A stretch of DNA of 64,000 nucleotides from Schmidtea polychroa (lineage: Eukaryota). The notes under the pieces were generated by a model, which saw only the letters and a list, made by a program, of their open reading frames with translations, made no database searches and was not told the DNA's origin. Numbering within the stretch: position 1 is the stretch's first letter; the number at the start of each line of letters is the position of its first letter. Below are positions 10,835 to 61,719 of the stretch, piece by piece. The translations under genes were made by a program, and so were the position numbers. The stretch covers positions 15,192,001-15,256,000 of the forward strand of contig CM097885.1 in the NCBI GenBank assembly GCA_044892525.1. Direction: 5' to 3'.

Positions 10835-10895
10835 TACAACATGAAGATTTAAAATTAAAATTTAAATTAGGTAATGAAGGATTAGCACCCATTGT

Positions 10896-11405: not shown

Positions 11406-11423
11406 GATCAGTCAATCCAGGTT

Positions 11424-12049: not shown

Positions 12050-12162
12050 TTTTAATATTCAATTAAAAATTAATTTTCTTTATATCGTAAAGAATAAATT
12101 GATTTAATTACTCTATAATATAACATATATATATACTTGATTTTTATAAATATTCAGTAGAA

Positions 12163-12675
12163 ATGTTGACAAATATTAATTATAGTGGTCTTGTGTCTTT
12201 GGAAACTGTTGGTATGATGAATTTCCCCAAGTGTAAACCACAACAATATGTTGACAAAACTGGAAAATATACTATTATATTTTTCAAAAATGGTAAATGT
12301 CGTATAATGGGTTGTAAGAAGCCTATCGAATTCGAGAATTTGGAATATAATATCAAAGATATTCAAGTTCAAAGTCTTACTATAGCTATCAAGGTTGAAC
12401 AATCTATTAATTTGAATAATTTAGCAAAGTTATTAGATGGAGATTGTATATATGAGCCTGAATTATTTCCCGCTCTGCGTTATACAAAATATAATCCACT
12501 ATGTGTAAATATATTTTCGAGTGGTAAAATAGTTGTACTAGGTATTAAAAATTTAGATTTTCATACTATTGTTGAAGGAATTATAAACGATGTAAAGGAT
12601 TTGATTGGATCTTTAACAATTTCTTCAAATATAAGTAACGAGGATTTGCTTGAATATTTATTCAACAATGATTGA
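12163..12675 (+). CDS. TATA-binding protein (TBP)-like protein carried by element A
   Basis: IYEPELFPALRY...VNIFSSGKIVVLGIK matches TBP repeat 2 (YEPELFPGLIY...IFVSGKVVLTGAK). IIFFKNGKCRIMGCK matches the end of repeat 1. Intact 170-aa ORF. Confidence 0.85.
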   Translation: MLTNINYSGLVSLETVGMMNFPKCKPQQYVDKTGKYTIIFFKNGKCRIMGCKKPIEFENLEYNIKDIQVQSLTIAIKVEQSINLNNLAKLLDGDCIYEPELFPALRYTKYNPLCVNIFSSGKIVVLGIKNLDFHTIVEGIINDVKDLIGSLTISSNISNEDLLEYLFNND

Positions 12676-13022
12676 ATTATGAAGGTAACTGTTTTTATTT
12701 TAAATTTACTGATTTTGGTTTAGAAACTATACTAAAAATTTTGATTGATAAAATTGAAGATTTTTATCCTAATTTGTATTGTGCTCCAGAAGTTGTGTTT
12801 TACAAAATTTATGAAATAACTGGAATAAATGTAATAGATTTAATTCATATGGATCATGCTACGATTACATGTTATACCGACGATGTTGAAAATTGTGATT
12901 TTTGTAAAAATAAAATGCAGAATACTTGTGGGGATGATAGTTGTACATGTTTTATAAATCTACAGAAACGAGAAATAATTCATGCATTACTTGTGGAATT
13001 GCGAAAAAATGTATTTTTGTAA
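12672..13022 (+). CDS. Cys-rich hypothetical protein of element A
   Basis: 116-aa ORF with CDFC and CGDDSCTC. It shares KIYEITGINVIDL and CGDDxCxC with the protein at 48616-48974. Start codon uncertain. Confidence 0.55.
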   Translation: MNYEGNCFYFKFTDFGLETILKILIDKIEDFYPNLYCAPEVVFYKIYEITGINVIDLIHMDHATITCYTDDVENCDFCKNKMQNTCGDDSCTCFINLQKREIIHALLVELRKNVFL

Positions 13023-13221
13023 TAAAATATAATTATATTTGTTTTGTGATAACCTTAATTAACCTATAATATTTCTTTGTGTACAAAAAATCATTACAGA
13101 CTGTTATTTAGCATAAAATGAACTAGTTGATCACGTTTTGATCATGCCTGTCACTTGAAACTTGTTTACAATGAAATTAGTATAAATATCTGGTTCAAAT
13201 TATTAAATATTATAACTACAA

Positions 13222-13825
13222 ATGGATAATCAAATTACAGGTTTGTTGTCGTTTACACATATTACATTTATTAGTTTTTTAATCTAGGAGTTTTGAAGAG
13301 AAAAAATGCAGATGCCGCTCAGGAATTCGGAAAACGGAAATTTAAAGAAGCGACATTATCCTCGGAAATCTTGGTCAATGTTCGAGTGGATACAAAAAAG
13401 CCAGTCGAATTCATGCAATGCAAACTAAATTATTTGTATTGTCCAATTTCCTATACATTTAAGGTAAGTTTCTATTAATTATTTTGGATTTTATTATTAT
13501 TATTATTTATTGTTAGTAACCAGTAACTCTGGAAAAATGTTTCTACAATGTGAGACTTTCCAAAATCAAGTTTCACGACAAGATGCTATTGGGACAATTA
13601 TTTCAGAGGATCAATGAAAATATTGAATTTGATGATTAAGATATGTTCATTAGAAACGATTTGGATATGATTCACAATGGTGGTAAGATGAGCAAAATAA
13701 CCTGCATGGTTACCATATTATTTCAAGGGTATAATGTAAGCAGAGACCGAATCAAACCAATTTGGAAAATTATAAAGCCGAAGATAAGTTTGAAGAGGAA
13801 CATTGTTCATGTTAAATTTATTTAA
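13222..13825 (+). pseudogene. Spliced hypothetical gene, homologue of 49071-49490
   Basis: ATG at 13222; a GT-AG intron at 13241-13287 joins in frame to the 13293 ORF; second donor GTAAGT at 13464. C-terminal VTILFQGYNV...PIWKII matches ITITIQGYKV...PIWKIM. Internal stop at 13637. Confidence 0.65.
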
Positions 13826-13893
13826 TACATCTTTATTAGTGTTTTGGTGTTTTTAAATCATTGAAAATAACTAAAGTTTTAAATTTATTAATC

Positions 13894-14271
13894 TTAAATA
13901 CTATCGCTTTTCATTATATTTTCAACAATATGATCAATACAATTAGTAAAAACAATAGATTCATCTTCTTGTTTAGATTCATTTGGTAATTTATCTGTTG
14001 TAGAATTCTCAATACATGACTTAAGTTCTTCACTAGGCAAATCAGTATATTCATCTTCTTGCTGGGAAATATTTTTAGATTCATGACATATCATCTTCAT
14101 TAATTTCATCGTCTGAATACGCCCATTTTAATTTCTCTGGAACATTCATAAATTCTCTAATTTTTACATTAGATATTTCCTCTAATTTTTCAATCAAAAA
14201 GTTGATTATATATGCTAAATAAAAAAAATTAATAAACATTATAAAATTCATATTTTACCTTTTTCCGACAT
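13894..14271 (-). pseudogene. Spliced acidic hypothetical gene, homologue of 48616-48974
   Basis: MSEK|AYIINFLIEKLEEISNVK after removing the intron at 14258-14215; C-terminal CIDHIVENIM; appears disrupted internally. Confidence 0.65.
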
Positions 14272-14329
14272 GGTTGAAAATAATTAAAATGAAAAAACTA
14301 ATTATGTTTATACTATTATTCAAAAGCAA

Positions 14330-15971
14330 CAACATTTACCAAGATTTATTATAGTTTTTGATAAACTTTTATACAACACCTAAAACTTTCAATAGTTTCA
14401 ATAAAGCCATATTTCCTTATGATTATGCGACTGATTTGAATGTACTTGAAACCATTTATGAATTGCCTCCTATTTGGTCTGGTGTTACTGAAGATGATTA
14501 TGCTAAGGCTCAACTTATTTGGACTCAACACGTTGTACTAAATTGGCTGACTATATGTTAACTTATCAAGAATTGGATGTATTCCTCCTTGCGGACTATT
14601 TCCAACAATTCCGCTCCAAGGCCATTGCATACAATGGTCTAGAACCTCTAGAACTTTTATGGTATTCCGGGTATGTCATGGGCCTCAGCGCTTATGACAT
14701 TAACTGAGCCTATAGAACTTTTACAGGACATGGAAATGTTCAATTTTTACGAAGGAGGAATACGTGGTGGGTTAACATTTGTTAACAAACATTACGTTGC
14801 TGCTTCTGATAATACAGAATTATTATATATTGATATAAATAATCTGTATGGTTGGGATCTTAGCCAAAATTTTCCTTTTGCTGATTTCACTTGGGTGTAT
14901 GATGGATTGAATGATGAATTGCTTGAGTGCATGAATGCTGACATTGAAATCCTTCCCTATGGTTATACCATAGAAGTGGATATAGATATTCCAGAAATTT
15001 TTCATGATTTTTTAAATGACTTTCCTCTTGCTCCTGGTTCGAAAGTTGATGCTCACGCATTGGCCAAAGAACTATGTTCTTCATTGGAGGTTTCTCAAGA
15101 TTGATTGGTATCTTGGTGCCAAAGTTGTACATATCCATAGGGCTATAAAATTCAAGCAAGCACCGATTTTTAAAAATTATATAAATAAAAATACACAGCT
15201 AAGAGCTGAAGCAAGCAGTGAACTGTACAGAGATTTATTCAAATTGTATAATAATAGCTTGTACGGAATATCGGTAATTCCGCGGAAAAATTAATTACAT
15301 ATTCATCAAAACCATCATTTAGAAAAACCATCAACATTGATGATGATCTTTTTGGTGTACATCTCAATAAGGAGTCTATATGTTTGGATAGACCCAGCTA
15401 CTTCGGACAATCAGTGCTGGATTTATCCAAACTAAGGATGTATCAATTACAGTACATAGAATTAGCAAAACATAGGAGTCAGTTTAACTGTGATATAAAT
15501 ATAGTTGCGGGGGATACCGATAGTTTCTTCTTAGAGGTCAAAAATGTAAAGCTTGACGTTCTTTTGTCAGCGATGATTTCGGATGACTTGTTAGACACCT
15601 CAAATTATGATCCTTCTCATCCTTTATATTCTAGGAGACTCGAGTCAGTTATAGGAAAGTTTAAGGATGAGAGTAAGGGTGTAGGATATAGTGAGTGGGT
15701 TTTCTTGCGACCAAAGTGCTACAGTCTTTTAGGAAATAAATCTACTATGAGAGCTAAGGGCGTAAAATTACCAGGTACAGATATAAAACATCAATCCTAT
15801 CTAGACTGTTACAACATCAACACAGTTATTTCTGTACCTCAGACTAGAATAGGAACCCGAAATCATCAGCTTTTTACCTTTAAAAACTCAAAGATTGCTT
15901 TAACTAATCATGATGATAAAAGAGTTTGGGTAGAGAAAAACTCTAGTTTTGCATATGGTCATTATTTTTGA
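14330..15971 (+). pseudogene. Protein-primed family B DNA polymerase (pPolB), N-terminally deleted and frameshifted
   Basis: FPYDY, GIRGG, motif A YIDINNLYG, motif B KLYNNSLYG, motif C GDTDS, GKFKDE, LRPKCYS and DDKR across several frames. Confidence 0.92.
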
Positions 15972-16644
15972 TGACGATAATGATATTCAATCAGGAGCAG
16001 ATCCGGATCTCATCAATCAACATCTACAAGATTAATTTAATTCTGTGATCGGACTTGTTTGAATTTTTGTAAAATAGAAATTATTGTAGTCTCGTTTTCG
16101 TTTTATAATTATCGGTTTTATTTCTTTGATTTTTTTTTAATAATTTGATGTGTAAAAGTATTTTATTAGGTTGTAGTTTGTTAATAAAAATAATAATAAA
16201 AATAATAATACCTTCTATATTGTGTACAAACATTATATCTTCAAATATATAACCATTGGATAGAGCTCTTTAAGACCTTTTTAATGAACCATTATTCAAT
16301 AAAATATATCGAAGGTAATCCTTAAAATTCAAATTTAAAATGTTCGCAAATGTAAAGCATGTTCAATGTATATTAATGAATATCATACTATATACATTTA
16401 TTAAACATTTATTTCTTTACCTTTGTTATTAATACTTTGAATATTGTAAATAATAAAACTATGTTTCAAATAATAATATTCAAACTAACCAAAATTTACA
16501 AACTACCGCGCCAGCCCCTTCGGGGCGGGCGGCGGTTGTGTATGTTGATGATTTTAATTTTTATTAAATGCATTTGTTTGATTTCAGAATTCGATTTGTG
16601 TGACTAACCTAGTTAAATTTTGAGTTGATGTATTCGAGGGGGGA

Positions 16645-16775
16645 ATTGACCTTGACCTTAAAAATTTTGGCCTTGGCCTTAAATTTTGACCTTGAACTTT
16701 AAAAAATTGACCTTGACCTTGGGGTATGGGGTGTCCTGGATGTGACATGTCCTGGAGGTGACATATCCTACTACT
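16645..16775 (-). repeat. Right TIR of element A
   Basis: TGACCTTG array followed by TCCTGGATGTGACATGTCCTGGAGGTGACATATCCTACTACT. Confidence 0.9.
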
Positions 16776-40089: not shown

Positions 40090-40640
40090 ATGAGAATATT
40101 TCAATATTTAATATGTATTTTATTTTTATTTAAAAACTGTATATGCATTGCTGAACCAATTACGTTAGGCATAGCTAGTATCGTAGTCGGATTTTCTTCA
40201 ATTTATTACTATCAACGAAAAATATCTTGCGCCTTTTCTGAATGTTGTGATCCTCATTCGAAATGGTTACCAATGAACATAACAAGTAATTATTTATAAT
40301 AAATTGCCAGGTTTATTTATATTTTAATAAAGAATTAAAAGATGATATGAAAACTCATTTACATGGTCAACCTTTGGTTGAATCGGTTTTATCAAAGCAT
40401 ATTAAAGTAAATTAGTATATTGAAAGCAAATTTATTTATTAAATTTAGGCCCATATCTTTAACGATAAACCTTCTAAAGCCCTTCTTCTCTCCTTAAATG
40501 GAATGCCTGGAACTGGGAAAAATTTTGTCTCCTCCATGATTGCCAATGCAATATTTAAAAAAGGCATGAAAAGCAAATTTGTTAAATTATTTTTAACTTC
40601 AGTCCATTTTCCAATTGCAAAGAATGTGGAGGAATATAAA
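40090..40640 (+). CDS. Torsin-family AAA+ ATPase, exons 1-3 (40090-40285, 40333-40406, 40449-40640); remaining exons not found in window
   Basis: Signal peptide, ECC, N-I-T, LHGQPL, LLLSLNGMPGTGKNFVS (torsin Walker A GKN), KGMKSKFV and HFP...EEYK; GT-AG introns of 47 and 42 nt join in frame; donor GTATGT at 40641. Confidence 0.9.
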
Positions 40641-46925: not shown

Positions 46926-48381
46926 AGTAGTATGATTGGTCCCCGCCAGACCAGGTCCCCTCCAGACCACATATACCCCCTCCCCCCCCCCCCGGGAAAA
47001 AAAAATTTTTTTTTTTTAAATTTTTTGTTTTAATTAATTGGCCTGGAGGGGACACACTTTTTTTCATCCCAAAAATTAATGTTCCCACCAACGGATTTTA
47101 TTGGACGATACCTCATCTTAAAGCTCAGTCCAAGACCTTTCGATTGATCCATAGAAGGTATCATTATCATTAATATTGACAAAGTTATTAACAATTGATG
47201 ACCACCATCTTTTCAACGTTAAATTATTATTATTATTGAAAATATTATTAATTGGCCGGGCGGGGACATACTTTTTCTCATCCCAAAAATTAATGTTCCC
47301 ATTATCCGAATTTATTAATAGATAGCTTATTTTGAAGCGTAGTCTAAGACCTTTCAATTGAGCCATAGAAGGTATCATCATCATTAACATCGGCAAAGTT
47401 ATTAAAGTTTTACCGAGACCATTTTTCAAGGTCATTTATTTTTCAAAATATTATTTTCAAGGTCAAGGTCAAGGTCAAGGTCATTTATTTTTTTTCAAGG
47501 TCATTTATTTTTTCAAGGTCATTTATTTTTTCAAGGTCATTTATTTTTTCAAGGTCATTTATTTTTTCAAGGTCATTTATTTTTTCAAGGTCATATTTTA
47601 AAATTTAAATGTACAGAGTTCCCGACAACGATAATTATTCAACGATAGCTCATTTTAAAGCCCAATGCAAGACCTTTCGATTGATTCATAGAAGGTATCA
47701 TCATCATTATTATTGACAAAGTTATTAACAATTGATGACCACCATCTTTTCAACGTTAAATTATTATTATTATTCAAAATATTATTAATTGGCCGGGCGG
47801 GGACATACTTTTTCTCATCCCAAAAATTAATGTTCCCACCAACGGATTTTATTGGACGATACCTCATTTTAAAGCTCAATGCAAGACCTTTCGAATGAGC
47901 TAATGAAGGTATCATCATCATTATTATTGACAAAGTTATTAACATTTTACCAAAAATCATTTTCAAGGTCATATAATTATTAAGTGGTCTGGCGGGCCCC
48001 TACTCTTTTTCATCCCAAAAATTATTGTTCCCATTATCCGAATTTATTGGACGATACCTCATCTTAAAGCTCAGTCCAAGACCTTTCGAATGAGCCATAG
48101 AAGGTATCATCATCATTAATATTAACAAAGAGAATGACTCACCCAATGACTCACCCAACGATGTCTAATATTTTTAGAACGATGACTCATCAAGGTCAAG
48201 GTCAAATTTTTAATAAAAGGTCAAGGTCATTTATTATTTTCAAGGTCATTTATTATTTTCAAGGTCATTTATTTTTTCAAGGTCATTTATTTTTTCAAGG
48301 TCATTTATTTTTTCAAGGTCATTTAATTTTCAAGGTCATTTATTAAAATAATTATTATTTTCTAAGTTTTTAGTTTCTAAG

Positions 48382-48462
<81 letters not shown>

Positions 48463-48545
48463 CTATCCGACAAAATATTCTGACCCCCTATGGGTATTGC
48501 TAGCAAGGGTACTGGTCACATTCAACATGTCGCAAGGGTACTGTT
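46926..48545 (+). repeat. Left terminal arm of element B (imperfect long TIR with ~190-bp subterminal units and CAAGGTCA arrays)
   Basis: Repeated CATCCCAAAAATTAATGTTCCC...AAGACCTTTCGAATGAGC units; inverted counterparts at about 59560-61252. Confidence 0.85.
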
Positions 48546-48615
48546 TACAAAATTACTGGTAAAAATATTCAAGACAAAACTTTCTAAATTCTAAATATTA
48601 TTCTTTAAATATACA

Positions 48616-48974
48616 CTAAAATTTATTAACACATTCACATTCATCATCTCCACAGTTCATAACATTTTCAACAACATGATCTATACAATCCCTATATACA
48701 CACGGTTCAGTATCCGTAAATTCCTCCATAGGTTCATCAATTTCTTGAATGCTTTCCTCATCATCTTGAGTGTTTTCTTCATCTGTTTCATCAAATTCCG
48801 AATCTTCACTCTCTGCTACCCAGTCTATATTTAATGCGTTTGTAACAGATAATATATCCGCCATTTTCACACCAGATATTTCTGCTAATTTTTCCAATAA
48901 AAAGTTTATTATAAATTCTAAATATTAAATAATTCGATAATTAACTAATCATATTAACCTTTTTCTGTAGTCAT
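48616..48974 (-). CDS. Spliced acidic, Cys-tailed hypothetical protein
   Basis: MTTEK|EFIINFLLEKLAEISGVK after removing the 41-nt GT-AG intron at 48958-48918; acidic linker; CVYRDCIDH...CGDDECEC. Confidence 0.75.
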
Positions 48975-49070
48975 TATTAGTATTTTAAAACTATAGTATA
49001 TATTTGTTTATAGAAAATATAGAATATAAGCGAAAACAAATATGACTAAATACATTTATTAAATACAACA

Positions 49071-49490
49071 TTAAAATAACTGTGAAAGTCTAGCAGACAT
49101 AATTTTCCAAATTGGAGAATACACATCATTATTATCAACTTTATATCCTTGGATTGTAATTGTTATATACCAATTTTCGTTTTCTTTGAAACTGATTTCA
49201 TCAAAGGAATCATAAAATTTTGCATATCGGTTGTTGAAAAATGCATTTTGATTGCATGATAGATTCGTATTCAACCTTTTGAAAACATCATCTATGGTTT
49301 TAATATCTAACATTGAAAGCGTGCCGGTTAAGAATTGAAATTGGGTAGGAATTAGCTTGATCGGTGACACCAATTTCATATTGATTTCTTCTTTTAAAAA
49401 ATACATTTTGTAGTTGTGGAACATTTGAACAGGTTGTACAAGTTCTGGAACTACTTTTGGTTTTTCAGTGCTTGAAATTTTCTTGGTCAT
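49071..49490 (-). CDS. Conserved hypothetical Polinton protein (139 aa)
   Basis: Intact ORF with a homologue in element A (13222-13825). Confidence 0.7.
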   Translation of the reverse strand: MTKKISSTEKPKVVPELVQPVQMFHNYKMYFLKEEINMKLVSPIKLIPTQFQFLTGTLSMLDIKTIDDVFKRLNTNLSCNQNAFFNNRYAKFYDSFDEISFKENENWYITITIQGYKVDNNDVYSPIWKIMSARLSQLF

Positions 49491-49598
49491 TGTGAATTAT
49501 GATTAAAATGAAATGGTATAGGGTTTTTATACCTATGACTATTGTTTATCATCCAATCAGATTGCAGTATGTTTTTGTTTTAATTGAATGATAAATAA

Positions 49599-50063
49599 TT
49601 AATTAAGTGATAATAAAAAATCTAAAAATTCTTTTCCTTCAATTATTGATTTAATTTCAGATATGATATTATCAACTATACTTTTGTATTCAATATTTTT
49701 TATTCCAAGAATTACTATCTTACCGCTAGCGAATATATTTACACACATAGGGTTATATTTTATATATCTCAAAGCTGGAAATAATTCTGGTTCATAAAAG
49801 CATGGTATTAATTTAGCTAATTTATTTAAATTACAAGAAAAACCTATATCGGAAGTTACGGTTATCGATTGTATTTCTAAATCATAAACATTATATTCAC
49901 TAGCTTTGCTTATTTCCTTACACCCCATAATTCTACATTTACCAGTTTTGAAATATATTATTGGATATTTATTACTTCTATTGATAAGTTGTTGTGGTTT
50001 CCCTATTGGAAATACCATTTTTGATACATCAGTTTTTGCCCTGTAATTTATATTTGAAAGCAT
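49599..50063 (-). CDS. TATA-binding protein (TBP)-like protein carried by element B
   Basis: FYEPELFPALRY...VNIFASGKIVILGIK and IIYFKTGKCRIMGCK; intact 154 aa; head-to-head with the ATPase as in element A. Confidence 0.85.
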   Translation of the reverse strand: MLSNINYRAKTDVSKMVFPIGKPQQLINRSNKYPIIYFKTGKCRIMGCKEISKASEYNVYDLEIQSITVTSDIGFSCNLNKLAKLIPCFYEPELFPALRYIKYNPMCVNIFASGKIVILGIKNIEYKSIVDNIISEIKSIIEGKEFLDFLLSLN

Positions 50064-50167
50064 TTTAATGAAATAATTTTAAAAACTTTGATATATATAG
50101 GTATTTAAAAACAGAGTTCATTTAAATTATCAATATAAACAATAATTATATAGTTTAAATTTAAAAA

Positions 50168-50806
50168 ATGGAATTACGAAATGATGCAGTATACCAAATC
50201 GTTGGTCCAAGTGGTAGCGGGAAAACTTTATTTGTTTGTAAATTACTAAAATCAAATTTGTTTAAAACAAAATTCAACAATATTTATTGGCATAGGGGCG
50301 CCGACGAAGAACACGGATTGACGCAATCAAGTTTCTGTCAGTTGAAAAACATGAAAATAGTAAAGGGCTTTGATAAAAACTGGTCAAGTCGTTTGAAGAA
50401 AGATGATGTCATCATTATCGATGATTTGTATCAAGAAGCCAATAAAGAAAAGGACTTTAATAATTTATTCACAAAAATCAGCAGACATGTTGGTGTAACA
50501 GTTATTTTCATAACACAAAATCTATTTCATCAAGGTGGTGCACATCGAACACGTAATTTAAATGTACAATATTTAGTTATTTTCAAGAATCCTAGAGATG
50601 CAACTGTCATTGATTTTCTTGGACGACAAGCATACCCTAATAACCGTAATTTTCTTATCAGTGCATTTCAAGATGCCACGAAAATACCGCATGGGTATAT
50701 ATTTCTCGATTTCACACAACAATGCCCTGATGATATACGCGTAAAAACAGATATTTTCAACCCAAAAGGTGCCATGGTATATAAACAAAGTTCAAAACAA
50801 AGTTGA
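50168..50806 (+). CDS. A32/FtsK-HerA family DNA packaging ATPase
   Basis: GPSGSGKT, IIIDD, SRH...ITQNLF, RTRNLN.QY...FKNPRD and HGYIFLD. Confidence 0.93.
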   Translation: MELRNDAVYQIVGPSGSGKTLFVCKLLKSNLFKTKFNNIYWHRGADEEHGLTQSSFCQLKNMKIVKGFDKNWSSRLKKDDVIIIDDLYQEANKEKDFNNLFTKISRHVGVTVIFITQNLFHQGGAHRTRNLNVQYLVIFKNPRDATVIDFLGRQAYPNNRNFLISAFQDATKIPHGYIFLDFTQQCPDDIRVKTDIFNPKGAMVYKQSSKQS

Positions 50807-50819
50807 AAACATATAAATC

Positions 50820-51308
50820 ATGTTTTCAAAAACAAGGATATCGGGTAAAAAACAACCAAAAGTTCCACCAACAACTAGTTATACTCCATCTAAAGATCTT
50901 ATTACAGAAAATTTTCCTGCAATGAATCTTATTTCGAAAAATCCTAAACCAAAAAGTAAAACCACTAAGAAAGTAAAAGTTGTTAAAAATCATCGGAGTT
51001 TCCCGTTTTTCAATACATTGTTAAAGGCACCAAGTATGAAAAGAAACAGTATTTTGCAATCTTTTCCAAATTATGTTGTCGATGATTTACTCGATATTAT
51101 ACTTAAAGTAGTCAAAGGCAAGATTAAAATCAGTAAATCTAAAAAGCAATTATTGAGTAAACATAGGAAACCTTTGCTATCATTAGTAAATAATAAAAAT
51201 CGTCAACAAATGAGAAAAATTATATATAAACAACAAGGGGGATTTATCGGTGCATTGATACCTTTAGCAATATCATTATTAGGTGGAATAATAGGAAGTC
51301 GATCATAA
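50820..51308 (+). CDS. Basic virion core protein, pX-like C-terminus
   Basis: Lys-rich; ends QQGGFIGALIPLAISLLGG, resembling adenovirus pX after a GG protease site. Confidence 0.7.
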   Translation: MFSKTRISGKKQPKVPPTTSYTPSKDLITENFPAMNLISKNPKPKSKTTKKVKVVKNHRSFPFFNTLLKAPSMKRNSILQSFPNYVVDDLLDIILKVVKGKIKISKSKKQLLSKHRKPLLSLVNNKNRQQMRKIIYKQQGGFIGALIPLAISLLGGIIGSRS

Positions 51309-51369
51309 ACAATGGGTGCTAATCCTTCATTACCAGACATTAAATTTAATATTAAATCTTCTTGTTGTA

Positions 51370-52425
51370 ATGGAGAAGATTTGGACGAACCCGGAAGACG
51401 AAGCCGGTTTTGGTGGAGTGGCAAAATTAAGGAAAAGAGTTCCGAATTCGAAAAAGGAAACTCAGAAGTGGTTATCAGACCAGCTTGCGTACAGTTTGAA
51501 CAAACCAATGCAGAAACGATTCCCAACAAGAGCATATAAAACATATGGAATAAATGATTTATGGCAAATGGATTTGATGGAGATGATACCCTATTCGAAA
51601 ATTAACAATGGGTATAAATATATTTTAACATGTATTGATGTATTCAGTCGGTTTGCCCGAGCAATACCCGTCAAGGCAAAATCTGCAGATGAAATGTCCA
51701 AAGCTGTTAATCATTTATTTAAAGATGGACATCCTAAAAACTTGCAAACTGATTTAGGTATTAATATTATTATTTTTATTATTATTATTATTATTTTAGG
51801 TAAAGAATTCTAAAACAGTAAAGTCAAGCAAATCCTCATTAAATTGAAAATAAACCATTACTCAGTACATTCTCAATACAAAGCTGCTCATGTTGAAAGA
51901 TTTAACCGAACTTTGAGAGATAGATTAAAGAAATTATTCGTGCATCAAGGTAATAAAAAATGGGTATTGGTTTTACCAAAAATAATAACCAGTTATAATC
52001 ACTCATCACATCAAGGACTGAATGGATTAAGGCCGATTGATATCACGTCAAAAACAATCTATTCTAAAAAACCTGAAAAAATTACAAAACCGAAATATAA
52101 AGTAGGTGACCATGTTAGAATTAGTAAAATTAGTGCATCACCATTTATTAAAAATTTCGATACAAATTGGAGTGATGAAGTCTTTGTAATTTCAAAAATA
52201 AATACTAAACAGAATCCTGTAATGTATGTCATCAAAGACGATGATAACAATATTGTACAAGGAAAATTTTATGAACAAGAATTACAAGTTATTCCTCCCC
52301 CAAAAGTATTTAGAATTCAGAAGATATTGAAAACTAAAAATAAAGGCAAGGATAAACAATACTATGTCAAATGGCATGGTTATCAAAACCCATCATGGAT
52401 ATCAGAAAAGGATCTAGTAAAGTGA
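51370..52425 (+). pseudogene. Retroviral-type (rve) integrase with C-terminal chromodomain; 42-nt intron-like insert and one premature stop
   Basis: WQMDL, IDVFSR, LQTDLG|KEF, VERFNRTL (DDE); chromodomain IQKIL...YYVKWHGY..PSWI; GT-AG at 51758-51799; TAA at 51811-51813. Confidence 0.9.
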
Positions 52426-53438
52426 ATTTTTATACTATTTTACCAAGCAATAGTTGCCCGCTTATTCATCCAGATAATCAAGCCAGTAAATTCATGGTCA
52501 ATCTCCAGAATCCGATTTCTTTAAATGGTGACTGGGAAGTTGCACTGCAAGATTTTACATTCGTGTACAATACATTCCCATTTTATAGTCAATGTAAGAT
52601 TGATTTCAAAAGGAATGCTATGAAAACATGTAGTGGTATCTTTATTATCAGTAATTATGATAAAACATATCATATTCCGAATCAAATATTAGATCAGCAT
52701 TGCACTATGTTTTACAAGGATGGATTAAATATCAGTTGTGATTTTAAACCATTTACAATAACATTCGAATATATTGAAGATGCCAGACGAATGGGCTGCA
52801 ATAAGTTGAAAAATGAAGTTATGGAAACAGAATATTTATTACGCTTTGATCTATTTGAAGCAAACAGTGTAATGAGAGAAGAAATCAAAATTTCAGTGTC
52901 GTATAATAATGAAGTTGAAGAATCATTCACCTTCGCTGACGAATTATATATTGATAAACTTGATGTGTTACTTAAATATTTAAAGTATAATTGTTCACAC
53001 ATATTTAAAAGTTTGGATATTGTGAAAGATTTGTTATTTACCTTCAGTTTGAATGATGACATTTGCGAAGTTACATTTGATAAAAATTTGACAAATACAC
53101 TTGGATTAGAGAAGCAGCAATATCGGGAAAAATCGGCTGGTATACGTAAACCAAGAATACTTGAACATCATCAACAAATGTTCATATATACTAATATTAT
53201 TGAGCCTATAATAGTTGGTGATTCCAGTGTTCCTCTATTGAAATCGGTGTGGATTGGAAAATATGAACATGATGAAGTTGTCAATATAAATATAGATAAT
53301 CCCATGTATTTACCAATTTCAAGCTCATGTATAAACAATATAGAAATAAATATTCGTGACGATAGTGGAAAACTTATAAACTTCCCAAAAGACTCAAAAA
53401 CTCATTTGACACTACATTTTCGTAAAGTAGATGGCTAA
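52371..53438 (+). CDS. Minor capsid protein (penton, single jelly-roll)
   Basis: FYTILPSNS...PDN.ASKF.V.L..PI.L.G.WEVAL at the N-terminus and IYTNIIEP.IVGD...PLL...Y.P...I.I.IRDD.G...LHFR at the C-terminus, typical of Maverick penton. The true start is probably near 52422. Confidence 0.85.
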   Translation: MAWLSKPIMDIRKGSSKVNFYTILPSNSCPLIHPDNQASKFMVNLQNPISLNGDWEVALQDFTFVYNTFPFYSQCKIDFKRNAMKTCSGIFIISNYDKTYHIPNQILDQHCTMFYKDGLNISCDFKPFTITFEYIEDARRMGCNKLKNEVMETEYLLRFDLFEANSVMREEIKISVSYNNEVEESFTFADELYIDKLDVLLKYLKYNCSHIFKSLDIVKDLLFTFSLNDDICEVTFDKNLTNTLGLEKQQYREKSAGIRKPRILEHHQQMFIYTNIIEPIIVGDSSVPLLKSVWIGKYEHDEVVNINIDNPMYLPISSSCINNIEINIRDDSGKLINFPKDSKTHLTLHFRKVDG

Positions 53439-53793
53439 TTCCGATATTATTAGTATGTATAGTGATAGCCAATCTGGCGGTGAATTACCATATTTTATTG
53501 GTAAACAGTACGGATCAGGTTGGTTAAAAACAATAGGGAGATTTGCACTTCCCATTCTTAAACGTATTGGTAGTTTTGGCATGAAAACTGCAAAAGATGT
53601 GATTATGAATGAACAGAAAATATTACCATCCCTAAAAACAAATGCTTTAGCGGAGTTAGGGAAGGTTCTACCTGGAGTTGCTGGTATGTTTCAAAAAGAT
53701 ACACCTCCAGTCCCAGCTCCAAAACGTAAAGGGCATGGAATATCGCGTATAAACAAACGAATGAAAGGACATGGAACTATATTTGCAAAATGA
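53431..53793 (+). CDS. Small virion protein with QxGG/QxGxG sites and amphipathic helix (pVI/'cupiennin'-like)
   Basis: QSGG...FIGKQYGSGWLKTIGRFALPILKRIG; located between penton and MCP. Confidence 0.7.
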   Translation: MANSDIISMYSDSQSGGELPYFIGKQYGSGWLKTIGRFALPILKRIGSFGMKTAKDVIMNEQKILPSLKTNALAELGKVLPGVAGMFQKDTPPVPAPKRKGHGISRINKRMKGHGTIFAK

Positions 53794-55013
53794 TTTGTGG
53801 TAAATCCGAATTATGTATATTTGATAGACCATCGCCCCAGGCAGTAATAGAATTTGGTGCCTTTGAGGAAGTTTTTCCTATGAATTCAATTACTGATAGT
53901 AGAAATGATATCGAGTTTTATATTAATGGTTCGCAAACTGAATATTTAGATTTGAACGATACTTTATTGACTGTTCAGATCAAGGTTGTAGATAAAGATA
54001 GAAAGGTTTTGGATGCCAATGCGGATGTATTACCAAACAATTTCATGTTTCATACTCTGTTTAAAGATGCAGTGTTGGGATTTAATAATATCAAGATTGA
54101 GGGTGGAAATAATACATTCATTCACAAGGCTTTGATAGAAACTATTTTAAATTACAATTCAGATACTAAAAATACCTGTCTTACACCTATGGGTTATGCA
54201 GCAGCAGATGATGAAAGAAAAAAGTGGGTTAAAGGCTCAAAAGTATTCACTATGTGCTCATCATTACAACTTGATTTTATGGATCAACCGAAATATTTAC
54301 TACCGGGAGTTAATATACATATTAGACTGAAAAGATCTGATTCTGCATTGTCTCTTACTAGTGCAACTGGTGCACCAATATGTCAATTAGTTGATGCAAA
54401 ATTATTGGTGAGAAGAGTTCGAGTAGACCCGTCAGTATTAGCTGGTCATCAATTGGGGCTTAATTCAAAACATGCAATTTATCCTTTAAAAACAAAGGAA
54501 ATTGTACAATTTGCTATTGCTAAAGGTGCTTCATCATTCTATAAAGAACAAATATTTGGTGACAGAAGAATGCCTAATTTTATTCTGGTAACATTTCAAA
54601 GTGAAACGCAATATAATGGATCGTATACTGCTTCCAGCTCAATTTTCAAAAATTTTGGTGTTACTTCATTGACTTTATCGAAAAATACTGATTATAGAGA
54701 AACATATACTCAAGATTTCGAGAATGATAATTACTGTGCGACATATATGCAGAGTATTGTTAGAAATCTGGGTTATTTAGATAAAAACTTGAATTGCGGA
54801 ATAACTCTTGAAGAATTTAAAAGCAAATACCCATTTTTCACATTTGTTCTAGCTCCCGATTTTGATTTAAATCAGAGTCAATTACCACAAAACGGGAATT
54901 TACGACTGGATATAAAGTTTGCAAAGGCCATTACTGAACCAGTACATGTTATAATATATGGAGTATTTGAAAATGAAGTTCAAATTACTGCAAATAGAAC
55001 CGTGCTAGTATAA
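53790..55013 (+). CDS. Major capsid protein (double jelly-roll, hexon-like)
   Basis: KSELCIF N-terminal motif, IEF.I.G...EYLDL, QPKYLLPGV.I.IRL.R and G.LRLDIKF; intact 407 aa. Confidence 0.88.
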   Translation: MICGKSELCIFDRPSPQAVIEFGAFEEVFPMNSITDSRNDIEFYINGSQTEYLDLNDTLLTVQIKVVDKDRKVLDANADVLPNNFMFHTLFKDAVLGFNNIKIEGGNNTFIHKALIETILNYNSDTKNTCLTPMGYAAADDERKKWVKGSKVFTMCSSLQLDFMDQPKYLLPGVNIHIRLKRSDSALSLTSATGAPICQLVDAKLLVRRVRVDPSVLAGHQLGLNSKHAIYPLKTKEIVQFAIAKGASSFYKEQIFGDRRMPNFILVTFQSETQYNGSYTASSSIFKNFGVTSLTLSKNTDYRETYTQDFENDNYCATYMQSIVRNLGYLDKNLNCGITLEEFKSKYPFFTFVLAPDFDLNQSQLPQNGNLRLDIKFAKAITEPVHVIIYGVFENEVQITANRTVLV

Positions 55014-55040
55014 ATGTATACAGAAATATAGAAAGTTGTC

Positions 55041-55424
55041 ATGGAGTAAGTTTTTCAATACTGTTTAATTTATTAAAGTAGTTCTGTTCAGGTCAATAGA
55101 ATTGGAAAACAGATATTGGGAAATGAATTTGTAGGAGTTTTTCCTCTCGATAAAATCCCATATTTGAGCAATAATCAAGCCATAATCGTCAATACTCAAT
55201 CGTCTCATCTTGGTGGAGAACATTGGATTGCTATATATGTGAAACCTAGTAATATATTCGTGTTCGATCCTATGGGTTTCTATTACCCTGCTTTGTTGGT
55301 ATCAAAACTACAAACAATGGGGAAACCTATTGTATATAATAAAACAATGTTTCAAAATCCCTTGACACAAACATGCGGTCAACATTGTTTAGCTTGGTTG
55401 TTGTATAAAAAATTTGATGATTAA
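55041..55424 (+). CDS. Adenain/Ulp1-like maturation cysteine protease (probable 33-nt intron at 55046-55078)
   Basis: FVGVFPLD, IVNT, GEHW, FDPMG and Q...TCGQHC catalytic residues; splicing gives the start MDSSVQVNRIG. Confidence 0.88.
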
Positions 55425-55449
55425 TAAATGTATTTTGTATCCTTTGTTG

Positions 55450-55494
<45 letters not shown>

Positions 55495-55561
55495 TTTTAT
55501 TAATATTATTATTATTTTATTATTATTATTATTATTAATATTATTAATATTATTATTATTA

Positions 55562-55609
<48 letters not shown>

Positions 55610-58600
55610 GATTTTTAAGGGGGTGTTTAAAATGGTAGAAATATTTGGTGAGGAATCGGTTATGGTGGAAATGTTTGAAATCTCTATTTAAATCGACAAT
55701 GTTCTTATTGGTAAAATTTTAAAGGGAAATAGTCAGTATTTAGCTATGAATTAATAATAGTTCCTGTGAAATTATATCGTTTTAGAGGTTTATTAGGTTG
55801 TGATGAATGTCATTGCACAGTAATTTAGATTTATGTTTTAGAACCAGTTTTTTATTAATTATCCACTGTTTTATTAAGTCTTTTAGGGTTAATGATCAAT
55901 TTACTTGGTTTTCACAATGAAATATTTGAAATCTTTAGAATTAATTGGGATTGATATCAAAGGTTATTGCTTTAAATTATTTTACTTAAGAAGTTATTTT
56001 ATTCATTGTGGGGACATCAGTGACAAAACTTGAGAAATATTGACTTAAAAGTTGGAAATCGACAACGGCTAAAGAAAATTGATCTTTATTGAAGGAATTT
56101 TATGATTTTAATTAGAAATTAAATCGGTTGAATATCAGTTAATCTATTGAAGGAATATTGTTATCGGATGGATAAGTGATATTTTGCCAAATTACCTTTG
56201 CTAAATATTATTTTAAATCACTAAAAATGAGAAAATTAAGCACTATTCATAAATTTATCGCACAAAATATCCATGTTTTGGTTACTCAAACATCTTAAAT
56301 TTCTCGCAAAGATATATTACGTCTAATGATCATCTAATTAAATTAGAAAAGAATTGTTACTTTATATTTTTAACTAATAAGCACCTTATTTGGTTAAATG
56401 ATAACCATATTTCTATTATGACTCCTTTAAATATTTTTGCCTCAAACAAATTTACTCCAAATGATAAAGAATTTAAAATTATCAATGAATAAAGACCATG
56501 TTTTTCTCATATTATTAACTATTGTAACGAACATTAGATGAATAAATTAATTTTTGCTTTAAATGACTACAAAGTTAACCAATAAATTAGTCGCTCGACA
56601 TAAGTGTAAAGTTACATTTAAAATATTCACAAATTTCTGATTATCTTACCTAAGAATTTCTAAATGATTAATATTGCGACATGTTGAGTGTGACCAGTAC
56701 CCTTGCTACCATTACCCAAAGGGGGACAGAATATCTTGCCGGATAAACTCGGAGTATATGGTCTTTATTGATATATCAAAATACTGTTATTTATAAATTA
56801 ACTAAAAATACTCAAAAATACTATATTATTTTACTGAATGATACCTTAAATGTTTTTAATATACATATTTCTAAAATAAATCAACAGTTCAAACCAACAA
56901 CATGTATGGATGACCACCCATTGTTAATTTATTTCCAGTGTCACGTCCCTCAAAAATACCGTGAGTGTTTTAACAAAACTGAGCTAAAAGAAACTTTCCA
57001 GATAACAACTCACCTGAATGTTTTGAACAAAAATGAGCAAAATTGAGAACAAACGATTAGATGGCGATTAACTTCTGGCCACATCCCTAACAACATGAAA
57101 ATTAAGATTTTAATTATTGAATTCGTTGTTTTCTGCCTGGAAATACTAACAGAATATTTTTTAATTCAAAGAATCTTCATTATAAATTTTTGAATTTAAA
57201 AAATTAAATGAAGGATATATTAAATTTACAATACATAATATTATATAAAATTATACTGTATTTATTAATAAATTTAGAATACATAAAATTATAATATTAT
57301 AATATTTTATAAAGTTATACTATATAATAATGTTTAAATATGCTTAAATAACTAAATTGTTTAAATATTTTTAAATAACTAAATTTAAATTATTTAAATA
57401 TAATTCTGATATAACGTTATTTCTTTCGTTTTAGTATCCATAAAGTAAGTAAATAAAGAATTTACTACAATATTTTAATTATTTTACTTAGTAATGAAGA
57501 AAATGAATTATATAATTATGAAGAAGATGAACAAAATGGTGAAACACTAAATGACTTATGTTCTGGATTTAGAGATTTCTTATTAAAACATGAATTATAG
57601 AAGAAAATGAACCAGACAAAATGGTGAAACATTGCTATGTTCGGGATTTCTTAAATGAATTAGCTGATTGTAGGTGTCCTTCAACATGAATTATCAGACT
57701 TAAATTATGTAAACTTTCAACGAATGTCAAGAAAAATGGGAAAACCGATGTTTTAGCAATTAGATATTGTAAAGTACTACCTGAAGAATATTATTATTAA
57801 TGTAAGACATGAATTAATTCTTTAAAATAAATATATTATATTTAGGTATCTGTGTTTTATGGTGGGAAATGTCATTGAAAAAGTATACCACAAATAACAG
57901 TTGCCTAATAGTCAGGTAGAATTTAATTTCTGACGATAAAATGATAAATAACATCTGTAAGTTAATGGCTTTTAAATTTTAGCAATGATAGTTGACACCG
58001 CATCAGAAACTAAGAAATACGTCCAATTTGCAAGATGTATTCCAAATGGCCTGATGGAGATGATAATTTTGAGATAGATTACCAGCAGAAGAGCGAGAAA
58101 AATTTGTAAATTAAATATAATAGGGTTGGGTGGGTCCTCTTTATCCCTTAATTAATATATATTTACAAGCTGATCGTCGTGGTAGGCGGTTGTAATCCAA
58201 CTAGTGGGAGGCCTCTGTAAATATATATTTGTGTTAGTGAAAACATTAATTAATTTGGTTATATTGCCAATGACGCATGTATTTTGAAATTATACGTTTC
58301 GAATGTGCTGGTAGTTGACTACCCATGCTAGGCGTAATGTTCCGTACGGAAAGCTATAATGCCCAGGTTCTTTTGACCCCACTTGGGGGAGGCACAGACG
58401 ACCCTTGTGGACGCGAACAAATATCCACCGTGTCTTTCAGGCACAGATATTTGGTCACTGCTCATTAGACCTGGCAATACTAAATGCATAAACTTTGCCT
58501 TGTCCTCTCTTGTCTTGATTTTTATCGTTTAAATAGTATGTGTGATAGGTTTTATTTACTAACCATAATTAATATACCCTTGCGATATGTTGAGTGTGAG

Positions 58601-58838
58601 TAGTACCTTTGTGAGCAATACCCATAGGGGGACAGAATATTTTGTCGGATAGACTATGAGTATATACACCCATGTTAAACAAGGTATGTGTATATAGAAT
58701 GTGTGTGTAAAATTATCGCTCCTTATTGACAACTTCCTGTAAAGGCAAACACAGAATACTGCAAACATAATAATACTCTACCCCATAACTTAGTATGTAA
58801 AAATTATTTAAGGTTTTTTCACTAATAATAATAATAAT

Positions 58839-58914
<76 letters not shown>

Positions 58915-58916
<2 letters not shown>

Positions 58917-59420
58917 GTTTAATGGGTTGTATATGTGTGTAAAAAATATTTGAGGTTTTCACGAATATTGATAATAATAATGGTTTATGAGTGTTTTTAT
59001 GTTTTTGACTAATATTTGCAATAATAATAATGGTTAATGGGTTGTGTGTGTGTGTGTGTAGAAAATATTTTAGGTTTTCACTAATATTGATAATAATAAT
59101 TGTTAATGGGTTGTGTGAGTGTAAATAATATTTTAGGTTTTTGACTAATATTTGCAATAATAATAATAATAATAATAAGTTTAATGAGTTGTATGTGTGT
59201 GTGTAAAAATATTTTAGGTTTTTAATATTGATAATAATAATAATAATGGTTTATGGGTTGTGTGAGTAAACCATATTTTAGATTTTTCACTAATAATGAT
59301 AATAATAATGGTTAATGAGTTGTGCATGTGTGTGTGTAGAAAATATTTTAGGTTTTTAATATTGATAATAATAATAATGGTTGAGGGGTTGTGTGTGTAA
59401 ACCATATTTTAGATTTTTCA
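58915..59420. repeat. About 60-bp minisatellite with (TG)n and (TAA)n inside the right arm of element B
   Basis: Repeated TTAATGGGTTGTGTGTG...AAATATTTTAGGTTTT...AATAATAAT; flanked by long (TAA)n tracts. Confidence 0.85.
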
Positions 59421-59425
59421 TTAAC

Positions 59426-59490
<65 letters not shown>

Positions 59491-60134
59491 TTAAAACTTT
59501 GAAAATAACATCTTTCGCGCGGATGTTAATATCATTCCCAATAATAATGATGATAATAATATTTATATATCAGTAGATAGATCTCGCACTGGGCCTTAAA
59601 ATGAGCTATAGATCAATAAAATCTGTTGGTGGGAACATTAAGTTTTGAGCAAACGAAAACCAGGAGCCCGCCAGACCACTTAATAATATTTTTGAAAATA
59701 ATAATAATTTATGAGTCATCGTATGAGTCATCGAATGAGTCATCGTTCTAAAAATACATGATAATAATAATAATAATAATAATAATATTCTTGGGAGTTG
59801 TAATAATAATTCTTTGAAAATATCTTAGTCATTATTAATAATACTAATAATACCCTAGCGAGTTGTTGATTGTGAGCAGTACCCTGGTGATCAGTACCCT
59901 TGTGAGCAGTTCCCATAGGGGGACAGAATATTTTGTCGGATAGACTCGGTGTATATATGATAATAATAATAATAATAATAATAATAAAACTTAGAAAATA
60001 ATAATATGTAATCAACGATTTAAACAAAATTATATTATTACGTATTCTATAATTAAAACAGAAGAATTATATAATCAATGATTTAAACAAATTATATAAT
60101 CATCGATAATTAAAACAAAATTATTAATTCTAAA

Positions 60135-60510
60135 AATACTAGGCATCGTTCTAAAAATATGACGTAATCATTCTAAAAATAATAGGCATCGTTCTAAAAT
60201 ATTAGACATCGTTCTAAAATAAGAGGCATCGTTCTAAAAGTATGATGTAATCGTTCTAAAAATATTAGGCATCGTTCTAAAAATATTTGGCATCGTTCTA
60301 AAAATATTAGGCATCGTTCTAAAAGTATGACGTAATCATTCTAAAAATAATAGACATCGTTCTAAAAATATTTAGCATCGTTCTAAAAATATTAGGCATC
60401 GTTCTAAAAGTATGACGTAATCATTCTAAAAATATTAGGCATCATTCTAAAAATATTAGGCATCGTTCTAAAAGTATGACGTAATCATTCTAAAAATATT
60501 AGGCATCGTT
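60135..60510. repeat. About 20-22 bp tandem array containing ATGACGTAAT motifs
   Basis: Alternating AAAATATTAGGCATCGTTCT and AAAAGTATGACGTAATCATTCT units. Confidence 0.9.
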
Positions 60511-61370
60511 GGGTGAGTCATTGGGTGACTCATTCTCTTTGTTAATAATAATGATGATGATACCTTCTATCGCTCATTCGAAAGGTCTTGGACTGAGCTT
60601 TAAGATGAGGTATCTGTTAATAAATTCGGATAATGGGAACATTAATTTTTGGGATGAAAAAAAGTGTGAGCCCGCCAGATCACTTAATAATATTTTGGAA
60701 AATAATAATAATTTAACTTTGAAAAGATGGTGGTCATCAATTGTTAATAACATTAAAACTATTAAAGATATATAAGATACCTATAGCTCATTCGAAAGGT
60801 CTTGGACTGAGCTTTAAGATGAGGTATCGGTCAATAAAATCTGTTAACGAGAACATTAATTTTTGGGATGAAAAAAAGTAGGGGCCCTCTGGATCACTTA
60901 ATAATATTTTGACAAATAATAATAATTTAACTTTGAAAAGATGGTGGTCATCAATTGTTAATAACATTAAAACTATTAAAGATATATAAGATACCTATAG
61001 CTCATTCGAAAGGTCTTGGACTGAGCTTTAAGATGAGGTATCGGTCAATAAAATCTGTTAACGAGAACATTAACTTTTGGGATGAAAAAAAGTGTGAGCC
61101 CGCCAGATCACTTAATTAAAACAAAAAATTAAATTAAAAAAAAATGACCTTGACCTTGACCTTTTATTTAAAAAAAAATTTTTCCCCGGGGGGGGGAGGG
61201 GGTATATGTGATGCGGGGAGCTCCTGATCTGGATGGCCCACATCCTACTACTATTGATGTTTTCATTATTATCAAAAGTAACTGAAATAAACGTTTATGC
61301 ACACGTTTTATTAAATAACATTAACAAACGGTTTCCAACATGAACATAAAACTAAAAACAAGTATTTAGA

Positions 61371-61541: not shown

Positions 61542-61719
61542 TTTTCTTTTTAATAATGAATGGTATGAAGAAAATATTTAGGTAATTGTCAAAATTTTTG
61601 GTTAGTAAATAATTGATGTTTGAGAATATTTTTTGGTTTGGAAATGGATGTTGTTTGATTAAGAATATTTTAAGTTTCACACATGATAAAAAAATATCAC
61701 TCATTTATACAAACATATC

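What the first reader, a model, noticed from the sequence alone, without database searches (positions are those of the whole stretch)
48918..48958. Host-sized spliceosomal intron at a conserved position in two divergent Polintons
Seen: ATG ACT ACA GAA AAA G|GT...TTTAG|AA TTT (41 nt, 48958-48918) in element B and ATG TCG GAA AAA G|GT...TTTAG|CA TAT (44 nt, 14258-14215) in element A. Phase and position are the same and the intron interiors are poorly conserved. Splicing restores homologous N-termini (EKEFIINFLLEKL and EKAYIINFLIEKL). Neither length is a multiple of 3. Sizes match the host torsin introns (47 and 42 nt). Inference: the intron predates divergence of the elements, so the virus is transcribed in the nucleus and adapted to the host mini-intron machinery.
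Basis: seen in the sequence. Interest (0 to 1): 0.75.

Follow-up and report, generated by a model that had tools for sequence, protein, structure and literature searches.

The report
Tiny intron in Polinton accessory gene
A virus-like jumping element in an animal genome carries, in over a thousand copies, a small gene whose start codon sits ahead of a 41-base stretch with ordinary splice signals that is likely removed by the host's splicing machinery, one of several such likely introns in an element family whose core genes are usually described as intron-free.

Summary
Both GT...TTTAG phase-1 segments (41 and 44 nt) lie where stated, in a small acidic orphan gene of two integrated Polinton/Maverick copies with 6-bp target duplications. 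They are very likely real spliceosomal introns. The layout holds in four gene variants (over 1,400 pattern matches), and family A lengths run 39-55 nt in all three frames. The codons after the acceptor are under purifying selection although variants B and C have no in-frame ATG for them. A TATA-like box sits at the same distance as in intron-free neighbours. No spliced junction was seen; the available runs could not test it. The intron predates the split of the gene variants (33% identical), but their carriers are sister families (core proteins about 87-97% identical). Nuclear transcription is expected for an integrated element, and adaptation to special mini-intron machinery is not shown. Intron-bearing accessory genes are known in Mavericks. 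More unusual: the same element has likely introns in integrase (recent gain) and protease (older, shared with metagenomic relatives). This scan noted integrase, protease and polymerase introns elsewhere in this genome before.

The parts
48918..48958 (-). Likely spliceosomal intron, 41 nt, phase 1, element B small gene (the finding)
48959..48974 (-). Coding part of exon 1 (5 codons plus 1 nt), element B
   Evidence: 30 of 30 fetched B loci identical here
48616..48917 (-). Exon 2 (2 nt, 99 codons, stop) of an acidic orphan protein; predicted product 105 aa
   Evidence: 150 of 150 scored genome hits 100% identical; no Pfam, fold or atlas assignment
49006..49012 (-). TATA-like box 38 nt before the exon-1 ATG
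14215..14258 (-). Homologous likely intron, 44 nt, element A
14259..14271 (-). Coding part of exon 1 (4 codons plus 1 nt), element A; TATA-like box at 14306-14312
13897..14214 (-). Exon 2, element A; broken in this copy (closes after 43 codons)
46926..61252 (.). Element B: 14,327-bp Polinton/Maverick copy with terminal inverted repeats and a 6-bp target duplication; no polymerase gene found inside; inserted in an older decayed copy
10520..16775 (.). Element A: 6,256-bp internally deleted copy with terminal inverted repeats and a 6-bp target duplication
49602..50063 (-). TBP-like gene (Pfam PF00352) in the same variable module as the small gene
51758..51799 (+). Second likely intron, 42 nt, phase 1, inside the integrase D-x-G-K-E-F motif
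55046..55081 (+). Third likely intron, 36 nt, phase 2, directly after the second codon start of the C5 protease gene
40286..40448 (+). Host torsin introns used as size reference (47 nt at 40286-40332; 42 nt at 40407-40448); not part of the element

Best explanation
The 41-base segment is likely an ordinary GT-AG spliceosomal intron that separates a five-codon first exon from the body of a small acidic accessory gene carried by a high-copy Polinton/Maverick family. Shown in sequence: splice signals, phase, conservation across four gene variants, free length variation, a closed unspliced frame and coding constraint right after the acceptor. Inferred: host RNA polymerase II starts about 10 nt before the ATG from the TATA-like box (possibly helped by the element's own TBP-like protein), so exon 1 is only about 25 nt, and the host major spliceosome removes the intron by intron definition to give a protein of about 105 residues. 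The intron was present before the A and B/C variants split and has been inherited since. It needs no special machinery and is most likely kept because precise loss is rare. For the protein, my best guess (about 25%) is a mostly disordered acidic adaptor acting with the TBP-like gene in element transcription; this rests only on composition, a low-confidence model and shared module divergence.
For: Variants B+C: 1,223 pattern matches with the splice sites left free; of 100 listed, GT in 98 and AG in 98. Variant A: 169 matches; of 100 listed, GT in 98 and AG in 100; lengths 39-55 nt, with 45/41/13 of 99 in the three frames (one row with an exon-2 duplication dropped), while exon 2 stays 107-108 codons in 25 of 30 loci. 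Variant A': 20 matches, GT 17, AG 20. No in-frame ATG without splicing in 30 of 30 B and 20 of 20 C loci, and C exon 2 has no Met until its last ten residues. The 18 codons before B's first internal Met are constrained: pS/pN 0.28/0.05 (B-C), 0.48/0.16 (B-A), 0.19/0.0 (A-A'), on small counts. TATA-like box at -38 (B) and -41 (A), against -34, -40 and about -42 for the ATPase, basic-protein and putative capsid genes; background 2-3.5%. The same element has an insertion with GT/AG ends inside the integrase motif, which is contiguous in 77 of 80 metagenomic relatives (3 end before the site) and in 90 of 100 listed same-genome matches.
Against: No spliced junction has been seen. In one search no joint skipping 48918-48958 was listed in four runs; one contig crosses the donor unspliced, but with only 23 letters on the intron side, under the tool's 31-letter bar, and the runs are only guessed to be RNA. 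No exactly intron-less copy of the gene exists among the pattern matches (3 shortened copies, none exact), so there is no retro-copy proof. Within-family GT/AG conservation is largely expected in copies 98-99% identical. The donor is lost in 3 of 20 A' copies. The B donor (GTTAAT) is a weak consensus, and B-C interiors are 30/34 identical, so B and C are not independent. The TATA regex missed 4 of 11 starts tested at the expected distance outright (integrase B, TBP B, ATPase A with no hit; orf120 only at -57) and gave only -60 for orf141. A branch point was not tested.
Confidence: 0.87

Rival explanations
1. There is no splicing: the segment is 5' leader and the protein starts at an ATG in or after it (the internal Met of exon 2, or an ATG inside the A-type segment).
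For: A-type segments contain ATGs that are in frame in 23 of 30 top-scoring loci; B has a Met 19 codons into exon 2; only unspliced contig ends were seen.
Against: In the unbiased pattern sample only 13 of 99 A copies have the length class that keeps that frame. C has no Met until the C-terminus. Codons upstream of B's Met are under purifying selection. The TATA-like box fits the exon-1 ATG.
Confidence: 0.05
2. The TTTAG is a spliced-leader trans-splicing acceptor; flatworm leaders end in AUG, which could supply the start codon.
For: Flatworm SL RNAs end in AUG (PMC12582326 passages) and planarian trans-splicing is cited there; the host is inferred to be a planarian.
Against: An AUG joined at this acceptor reads a frame that closes after two codons in both B and A. 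A cis donor and upstream ATG are conserved in all four variants.
Confidence: 0.03
3. On origin: the gene was captured from the host with its intron, like the intron-bearing cargo of nematode Mavericks, rather than gaining the intron inside the element.
For: The gene is absent from 80 metagenomic relatives by profile search and from the left modules of intron-free-integrase families in this genome (only 3 such modules were in view), so it was acquired recently. Cargo genes with introns are reported (bioRxiv 10.1101/2022.07.12.499685 passages).
Against: No host donor was found: all relatives among 5.8 billion and 1.84 billion proteins are the element variants themselves (6 hits; 2 hits). The same lineage gained introns in its own integrase and protease genes. 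Compatible with the best explanation; it changes only the origin.
Confidence: 0.35
4. The intron is adaptive: promoter-proximal introns let element transcripts pass as host mRNA (better export, escape from silencing of intron-less RNA) or gate expression.
For: Small-gene and protease introns both sit within six codons of the ATG. The protease intron is kept across a clade with 91/93 support. Silencing of intron-less mobile elements exists in human cells (PMC8770142, search listing only). Planarian Polintons are piRNA-silenced (PMC8532177 passages).
Against: ATPase, capsid-like, TBP-like and other genes of the same element have no intron. Families without the integrase intron persist in the same genome. 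No functional data.
Confidence: 0.15

Closest known systems
Polinton/Maverick elements of animals (adintoviruses; PMC8502044 passages; vertebrate Mavericks PMC8097293 passages)
   Same: Terminal inverted repeats, 6-bp target duplication, rve integrase with chromodomain, A32-like ATPase, C5 protease; a TBP-like gene is also listed for related elements in a figure legend of PMC8502044.
   Different: PMC8097293 states that intact vertebrate elements have intronless genes, in agreement with Kapitonov and Jurka 2006 (the 2006 paper itself was not seen). Here an accessory gene, the integrase and the protease carry likely introns.
Nematode Maverick cargo genes with introns (wasp/wosp proteases, krma kinases; bioRxiv 10.1101/2022.07.12.499685 passages)
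   Same: Intron-bearing accessory gene in a variable module near one terminal repeat.
   Different: That cargo has recognisable host families and the core genes there are intronless. Here the protein is an orphan with element-type promoter spacing, and core genes are interrupted too.
Introners in dinoflagellate maverick-polinton-like elements (PMC11957031 passages)
   Same: Spliceosomal introns inside Polinton-like elements.
   Different: Introners are repeated mobile sequences, mostly inserted after integration. These introns are short, AT-rich, vertically inherited at one position and have diverged interiors.
Ginger1 DNA transposons with 1-4 canonical introns in an integrase-like transposase (PMC2836005 passages)
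   Same: DNA-mobile elements keep spliceosomal introns at conserved positions.
   Different: Cut-and-paste elements without capsid or polymerase genes.
Adenovirus early genes whose start codon lies in a tiny upstream exon
   Same: Start codon supplied by a micro-exon.
   Different: Adenoviruses use long-range alternative splicing; here it is a single minimal intron.

Membership tests
U2-type spliceosomal intron | GT donor and YAG acceptor kept across diverged copies | tested here: met
   GT/AG 98/98 of 100 (B+C), 98/100 of 100 (A), 17/20 of 20 (A')
U2-type spliceosomal intron | Removal puts an upstream ATG in frame with constrained codons; the unspliced frame is closed | tested here: met
U2-type spliceosomal intron | Interior free to change in length and sequence | tested here: met
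   39-55 nt in all three frames; A-B interiors at shuffle level
U2-type spliceosomal intron | Branch-point signal | not tested
   Interiors are 85-91% AT; no host branch-point model was available
U2-type spliceosomal intron | Excised in RNA (junction reads) | tested here: inconclusive
   No joint listed; runs only guessed to be RNA, held as contigs; predicted exon 1 is shorter than the 31-letter word size
Polinton/Maverick | [quoted passage not shown] | tested here: met
   Both elements
Polinton/Maverick | rve integrase, packaging ATPase, C5 protease | tested here: met
   Pfam PF00665, PF04665, PF00770
Polinton/Maverick | Major and minor capsid proteins | tested here: inconclusive
   No Pfam hit; named from size, gene order and homology to relatives only
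Polinton/Maverick | Protein-primed DNA polymerase | tested here: inconclusive
   Broken pieces in A match long ORFs of complete relatives but give no Pfam hit; none found inside B, which looks non-autonomous
Polinton/Maverick | Intron-free core genes (as described for vertebrate and nematode elements) | tested here: not met
   Integrase and protease interrupted; a described trait rather than a strict criterion
Polinton/Maverick | Virus particles or an extrachromosomal phase | not testable with these tools
   No relative confirmed in viral contigs
Introner | Same intron sequence repeated at unrelated sites | tested here: inconclusive
   No similarity above shuffles to the torsin introns; no genome-wide search for the interior alone
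SL trans-splice acceptor | Leader AUG opens the downstream frame | tested here: not met
   Frame closes after two codons

The most novel reading that the evidence does not exclude
This Polinton clade has gained host-type introns step by step (protease first, shared with free-standing metagenomic relatives; then integrase and this accessory gene within the host's lineage) and keeps promoter-proximal ones because splicing lets its transcripts escape silencing of intron-less RNA. That would make it a virus-like element whose expression is licensed by the host spliceosome, and a thousand-copy natural series for dating intron gain.
Probability: 0.15. Interest if true: 0.75.

Novelty: new variant of a known kind. 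Interest (0 to 1): 0.4.

Why it matters
Polinton surveys often use intron-blind gene callers on the stated assumption that these elements have no introns (PMC10120064 passage). All 7 database versions of this protein whose sequence came from the two homology searches begin inside exon 2 without the first exon, so such pipelines truncate it and would score the integrase as broken. The lineage also offers a dated order of intron presence (protease older, integrase younger) with intron-free sister families in the same genome, which makes intron gain in a virus-like element testable. The single intron in the finding is the least surprising of the three, because it lies in an accessory gene.

Tried and rejected
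RNA: the look-up of sequencing runs listed 14 runs, none on record as RNA (no RNA holder listed). Four guessed-RNA runs laid on 48540-55430 gave 6 joints, none at the three introns; the integrase intron was skipped as a repeat and the loose-end and piece tables were cut. A second lay at the integrase acceptor (X1, X2, X4, X5) gave no joint: two X2 contigs run 12 letters into the intron, one X4 contig ends in a T run, two X1 contigs begin at the five letters shared by intron end and exon-1 end, and 6 loose ends were hidden. Both are inconclusive, and no silent-stretch or host-gene control was laid. Protein function: Pfam nothing significant; ESM Atlas no usable hit for B and only unnamed clusters at 0.90 for A; AlphaFold model pLDDT 52.7, pTM 0.23, helices 2-14, 18-27 and 77-86; Foldseek viral library 0 hits at E<=0.001. 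The idea that A-type lengths keep a reading frame (41/44/47 in the score-ranked sample) was rejected by the unbiased sample. One search fetched the wrong flank for A copies; repeated. Search for retro-copies lacking the intron: none. The GA donor in L253 was followed up and is a minority state. Papers not held: one id meant for Kapitonov and Jurka 2006 and Krupovic and Koonin 2015. Repbase entries for planarian Polintons (recalled to exist) could not be read and may already annotate exons; no supplements were opened.

Full report
Observation. On the minus strand, element B reads ATG plus four codons and one base, then a 41-nt segment (48958-48918) beginning GT and ending TTTAG, then exon 2. 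Element A has three codons after the ATG, one base, and a 44-nt segment (14258-14215) with the same ends. Both are 86-91% AT. Unspliced, the ATG frame closes within the segment. The arrangement appears in about 0.2% of 100,000 random sequences of matched composition. The torsin introns are 47 and 42 nt, in a gene with one match in the genome.

Setting. The genome is 781 Mb with four very large contigs and the window is about 28% GC; I infer a planarian, which no call states. Element B spans 46926-61252 and element A 10520-16775, each with inverted termini and a 6-bp target duplication. Pfam finds TBP, A32-like ATPase, rve integrase with chromodomain and C5 protease. The capsid and polymerase labels rest on gene order and homology to relatives, not on Pfam. 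No polymerase was found inside B. A is internally deleted and its small gene closes after 43 codons of exon 2. The B integrase has an in-frame stop shortly after its intron.

Copies. Exon 2 of B gave 150 of 150 scored hits at 100% identity, from 3,374 candidates; 30 of 30 fetched loci keep exon 1, GT, AG and 41 nt. Database homologues led to a third variant, C, about 64% identical, present in the same genome. All 20 fetched C loci have the same layout, 41 nt in 19 and 50 nt in one, with no in-frame ATG short of splicing, and C exon 2 has no Met until its last ten residues. Patterns that left the splice sites free gave 1,223 B+C matches (GT 98, AG 98 of 100 listed), 169 A matches (GT 98, AG 100 of 100 listed) and 20 A' matches (GT 17, AG 20); reversed-pattern controls gave 0. 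A-type lengths run from 39 to 55 nt, split 45/41/13 over the three frames in 99 rows (one row dropped for an exon-2 duplication), while exon 2 stays 107-108 codons in 25 of 30 loci. A and B interiors are at shuffle level (p=0.22), whereas B and C share 30 of 34 interior bases. The first 18 codons of exon 2, upstream of B's first internal Met, show pS/pN of 0.28/0.05 (B-C), 0.48/0.16 (B-A) and 0.19/0.0 (A-A'), on few changes. They are therefore translated and need an upstream start. A TATA-like box lies 38 and 41 nt before the exon-1 ATGs, like -34, -40 and about -42 for three intron-free genes and -32 for the protease, against a 2-3.5% background; five other starts among the 11 tested lacked it at that distance. 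Exon 1 is then about 25 nt long (inference).

RNA. No listed run is on record as RNA. Two lays of assembled contigs showed no joint at any of the introns. The unspliced contig ends seen extend 12-23 letters into introns, under the tool's bar, and no DNA-versus-RNA control was laid. Splicing is therefore neither shown nor refuted. No exactly intron-less genomic copy was found (3 shortened copies).

Age. The A- and B-type proteins are 33% identical, but their carriers are close: ATPase about 94%, integrase exons 91-93%, putative capsid 92%, protease 87%; C against B is mostly 90-97%. TBP is only 54-61% identical, so the left module diverges faster or is exchanged. Four-fold sites in the ATPase are 18/34 (window A-B) and 23/38 (C-B) identical. 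An ATPase tree of 36 rows puts the seven sampled carriers in one 100/100 clade, inside a 91/93 clade with metagenomic relatives; long branches at the base are unreliable. The small gene was not detected in 80 metagenomic loci, nor in the left modules of families with an uninterrupted integrase (12 such loci, 3 with that module in view, and one nested C-type copy). Wide searches return only the element variants. The intron is thus as old as the gene's known history, which is confined to this lineage.

Wider pattern. The same element has a 42-nt GT-AG insertion in the integrase motif (51758-51799). The position is shared by A, B and C carriers, with interiors from ATT repeats to a non-repetitive 40-mer. 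The motif is contiguous in 77 of 80 metagenomic loci (3 end before it; one of the two search patterns spans the site, which biases towards contiguity) and in 90 of 100 listed same-genome matches, which belong to families 75-82% identical. The eight bases around both junctions of the B copy form a direct repeat, as expected if the intron arose at a proto-splice site (inference). The protease has a 36-nt segment after its second codon start (55046-55081). The same layout, with no in-frame ATG otherwise, is in 6 of 15 metagenomic protease loci; 8 have an in-frame Met and one is unclear. It is also in 4 of 4 intron-free-integrase loci where the start was in view. The simplest order is protease intron first, integrase intron later; this assumes the genes share the ATPase tree.

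Mechanism. Most likely the host polymerase II and major spliceosome express a roughly 105-residue acidic protein from a two-exon gene (confidence 0.87 for the intron). Rivals are unspliced initiation (0.05) and spliced-leader trans-splicing (0.03; the leader AUG frame closes after two codons). Capture of the gene with its intron from the host is open (0.35), and an adaptive role has no direct support (0.15). The protein has a predicted N-terminal helix pair, a disordered acidic linker and a conserved C-terminal helix motif (low confidence) and no match anywhere.

Literature. Passages read: PMC8097293 (vertebrate Mavericks intronless); bioRxiv 10.1101/2022.07.12.499685 (core intronless, cargo with introns); PMC10120064 (assumes no introns); PMC11957031 (introners in such elements); PMC12220804 (group I introns in PLVs); PMC2836005 (Ginger introns); PMC8532177 (planarian Polintons piRNA-silenced); PMC13594981 (short-intron peak 45-85 bp); 10.64898/2025.12.11.693146 (Maverick expansion in Dugesia); PMC12582326; PMC8502044. 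PMC10748475, PMC5718144, PMC11296320 and 10.64898/2026.07.28.741278 gave nothing relevant. Searches showed no paper describing inherited spliceosomal introns in animal Polinton core genes. The library lacks most subscription papers, the 2006 founding paper and Repbase. Earlier notes of this scan report polymerase, integrase, protease and Bcl-2-like introns in the same genome; I had seen the integrase and protease candidates before reading them, and they are not independent support. A look-up by this protein's sequence returned nothing.

Verdict. A real and probably functional intron in an accessory gene: a new variant of a known kind, with RNA proof outstanding. Interest 0.4.

Noticed in passing
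window 51758-51799 (+): Likely 42-nt intron in the integrase motif; its interior becomes a pure ATT repeat of 69 to over 100 nt in sister families, and it is absent from more distant families in the same genome.
   Followed up: yes
window 55046-55081 (+); L116, L117, L119, L122, L127, L128: Likely protease intron right after the start, shared with six metagenomic relatives (37-47 nt), so older than the host's families.
   Followed up: yes
window 49006-49012, 50134, 50780, 53748, 55009: A TATAAA(C/T) box 32-43 nt before several element ATGs, in an element that encodes its own TBP-like protein.
   Followed up: partly
window 44400-46925 and 61700-62240: Older decayed Polinton copy interrupted by element B; a third terminus lies near 30783, and 32350-35631 is an inverted copy of B's right arm, on the far side of the host torsin 5' exons.
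   Followed up: partly
window 55430-61252; L192, L195: Element B and at least two other copies share a right arm without a polymerase gene, suggesting a non-autonomous high-copy subfamily.
   Followed up: partly
G000, (L219, L221, L227): Many copies occur as inverted pairs 5-13 kb apart, and some join A-type and B-type arms, pointing to recombination between families.
   Followed up: no
window 17951-18490 (-): Decayed, uninterrupted proteasome-subunit-like stretch with at least 40 genomic copies 91-98% identical (1,419 candidates), probably a host gene fragment carried by another mobile element.
   Followed up: partly
L116:225-722; L133:178-702 and 1530-2729: Metagenomic relatives carry cargo resembling a ubiquitin-conjugating enzyme, a dual-specificity phosphatase and a RING/TRAF-like protein (recognised by eye, not searched).
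   Followed up: no
window 50166 and 51794, run X4: Loose ends of T runs at A-rich places of the minus strand hint at oligo-dT-primed antisense RNA over the ATPase and integrase genes; the run type is a guess.
   Followed up: no
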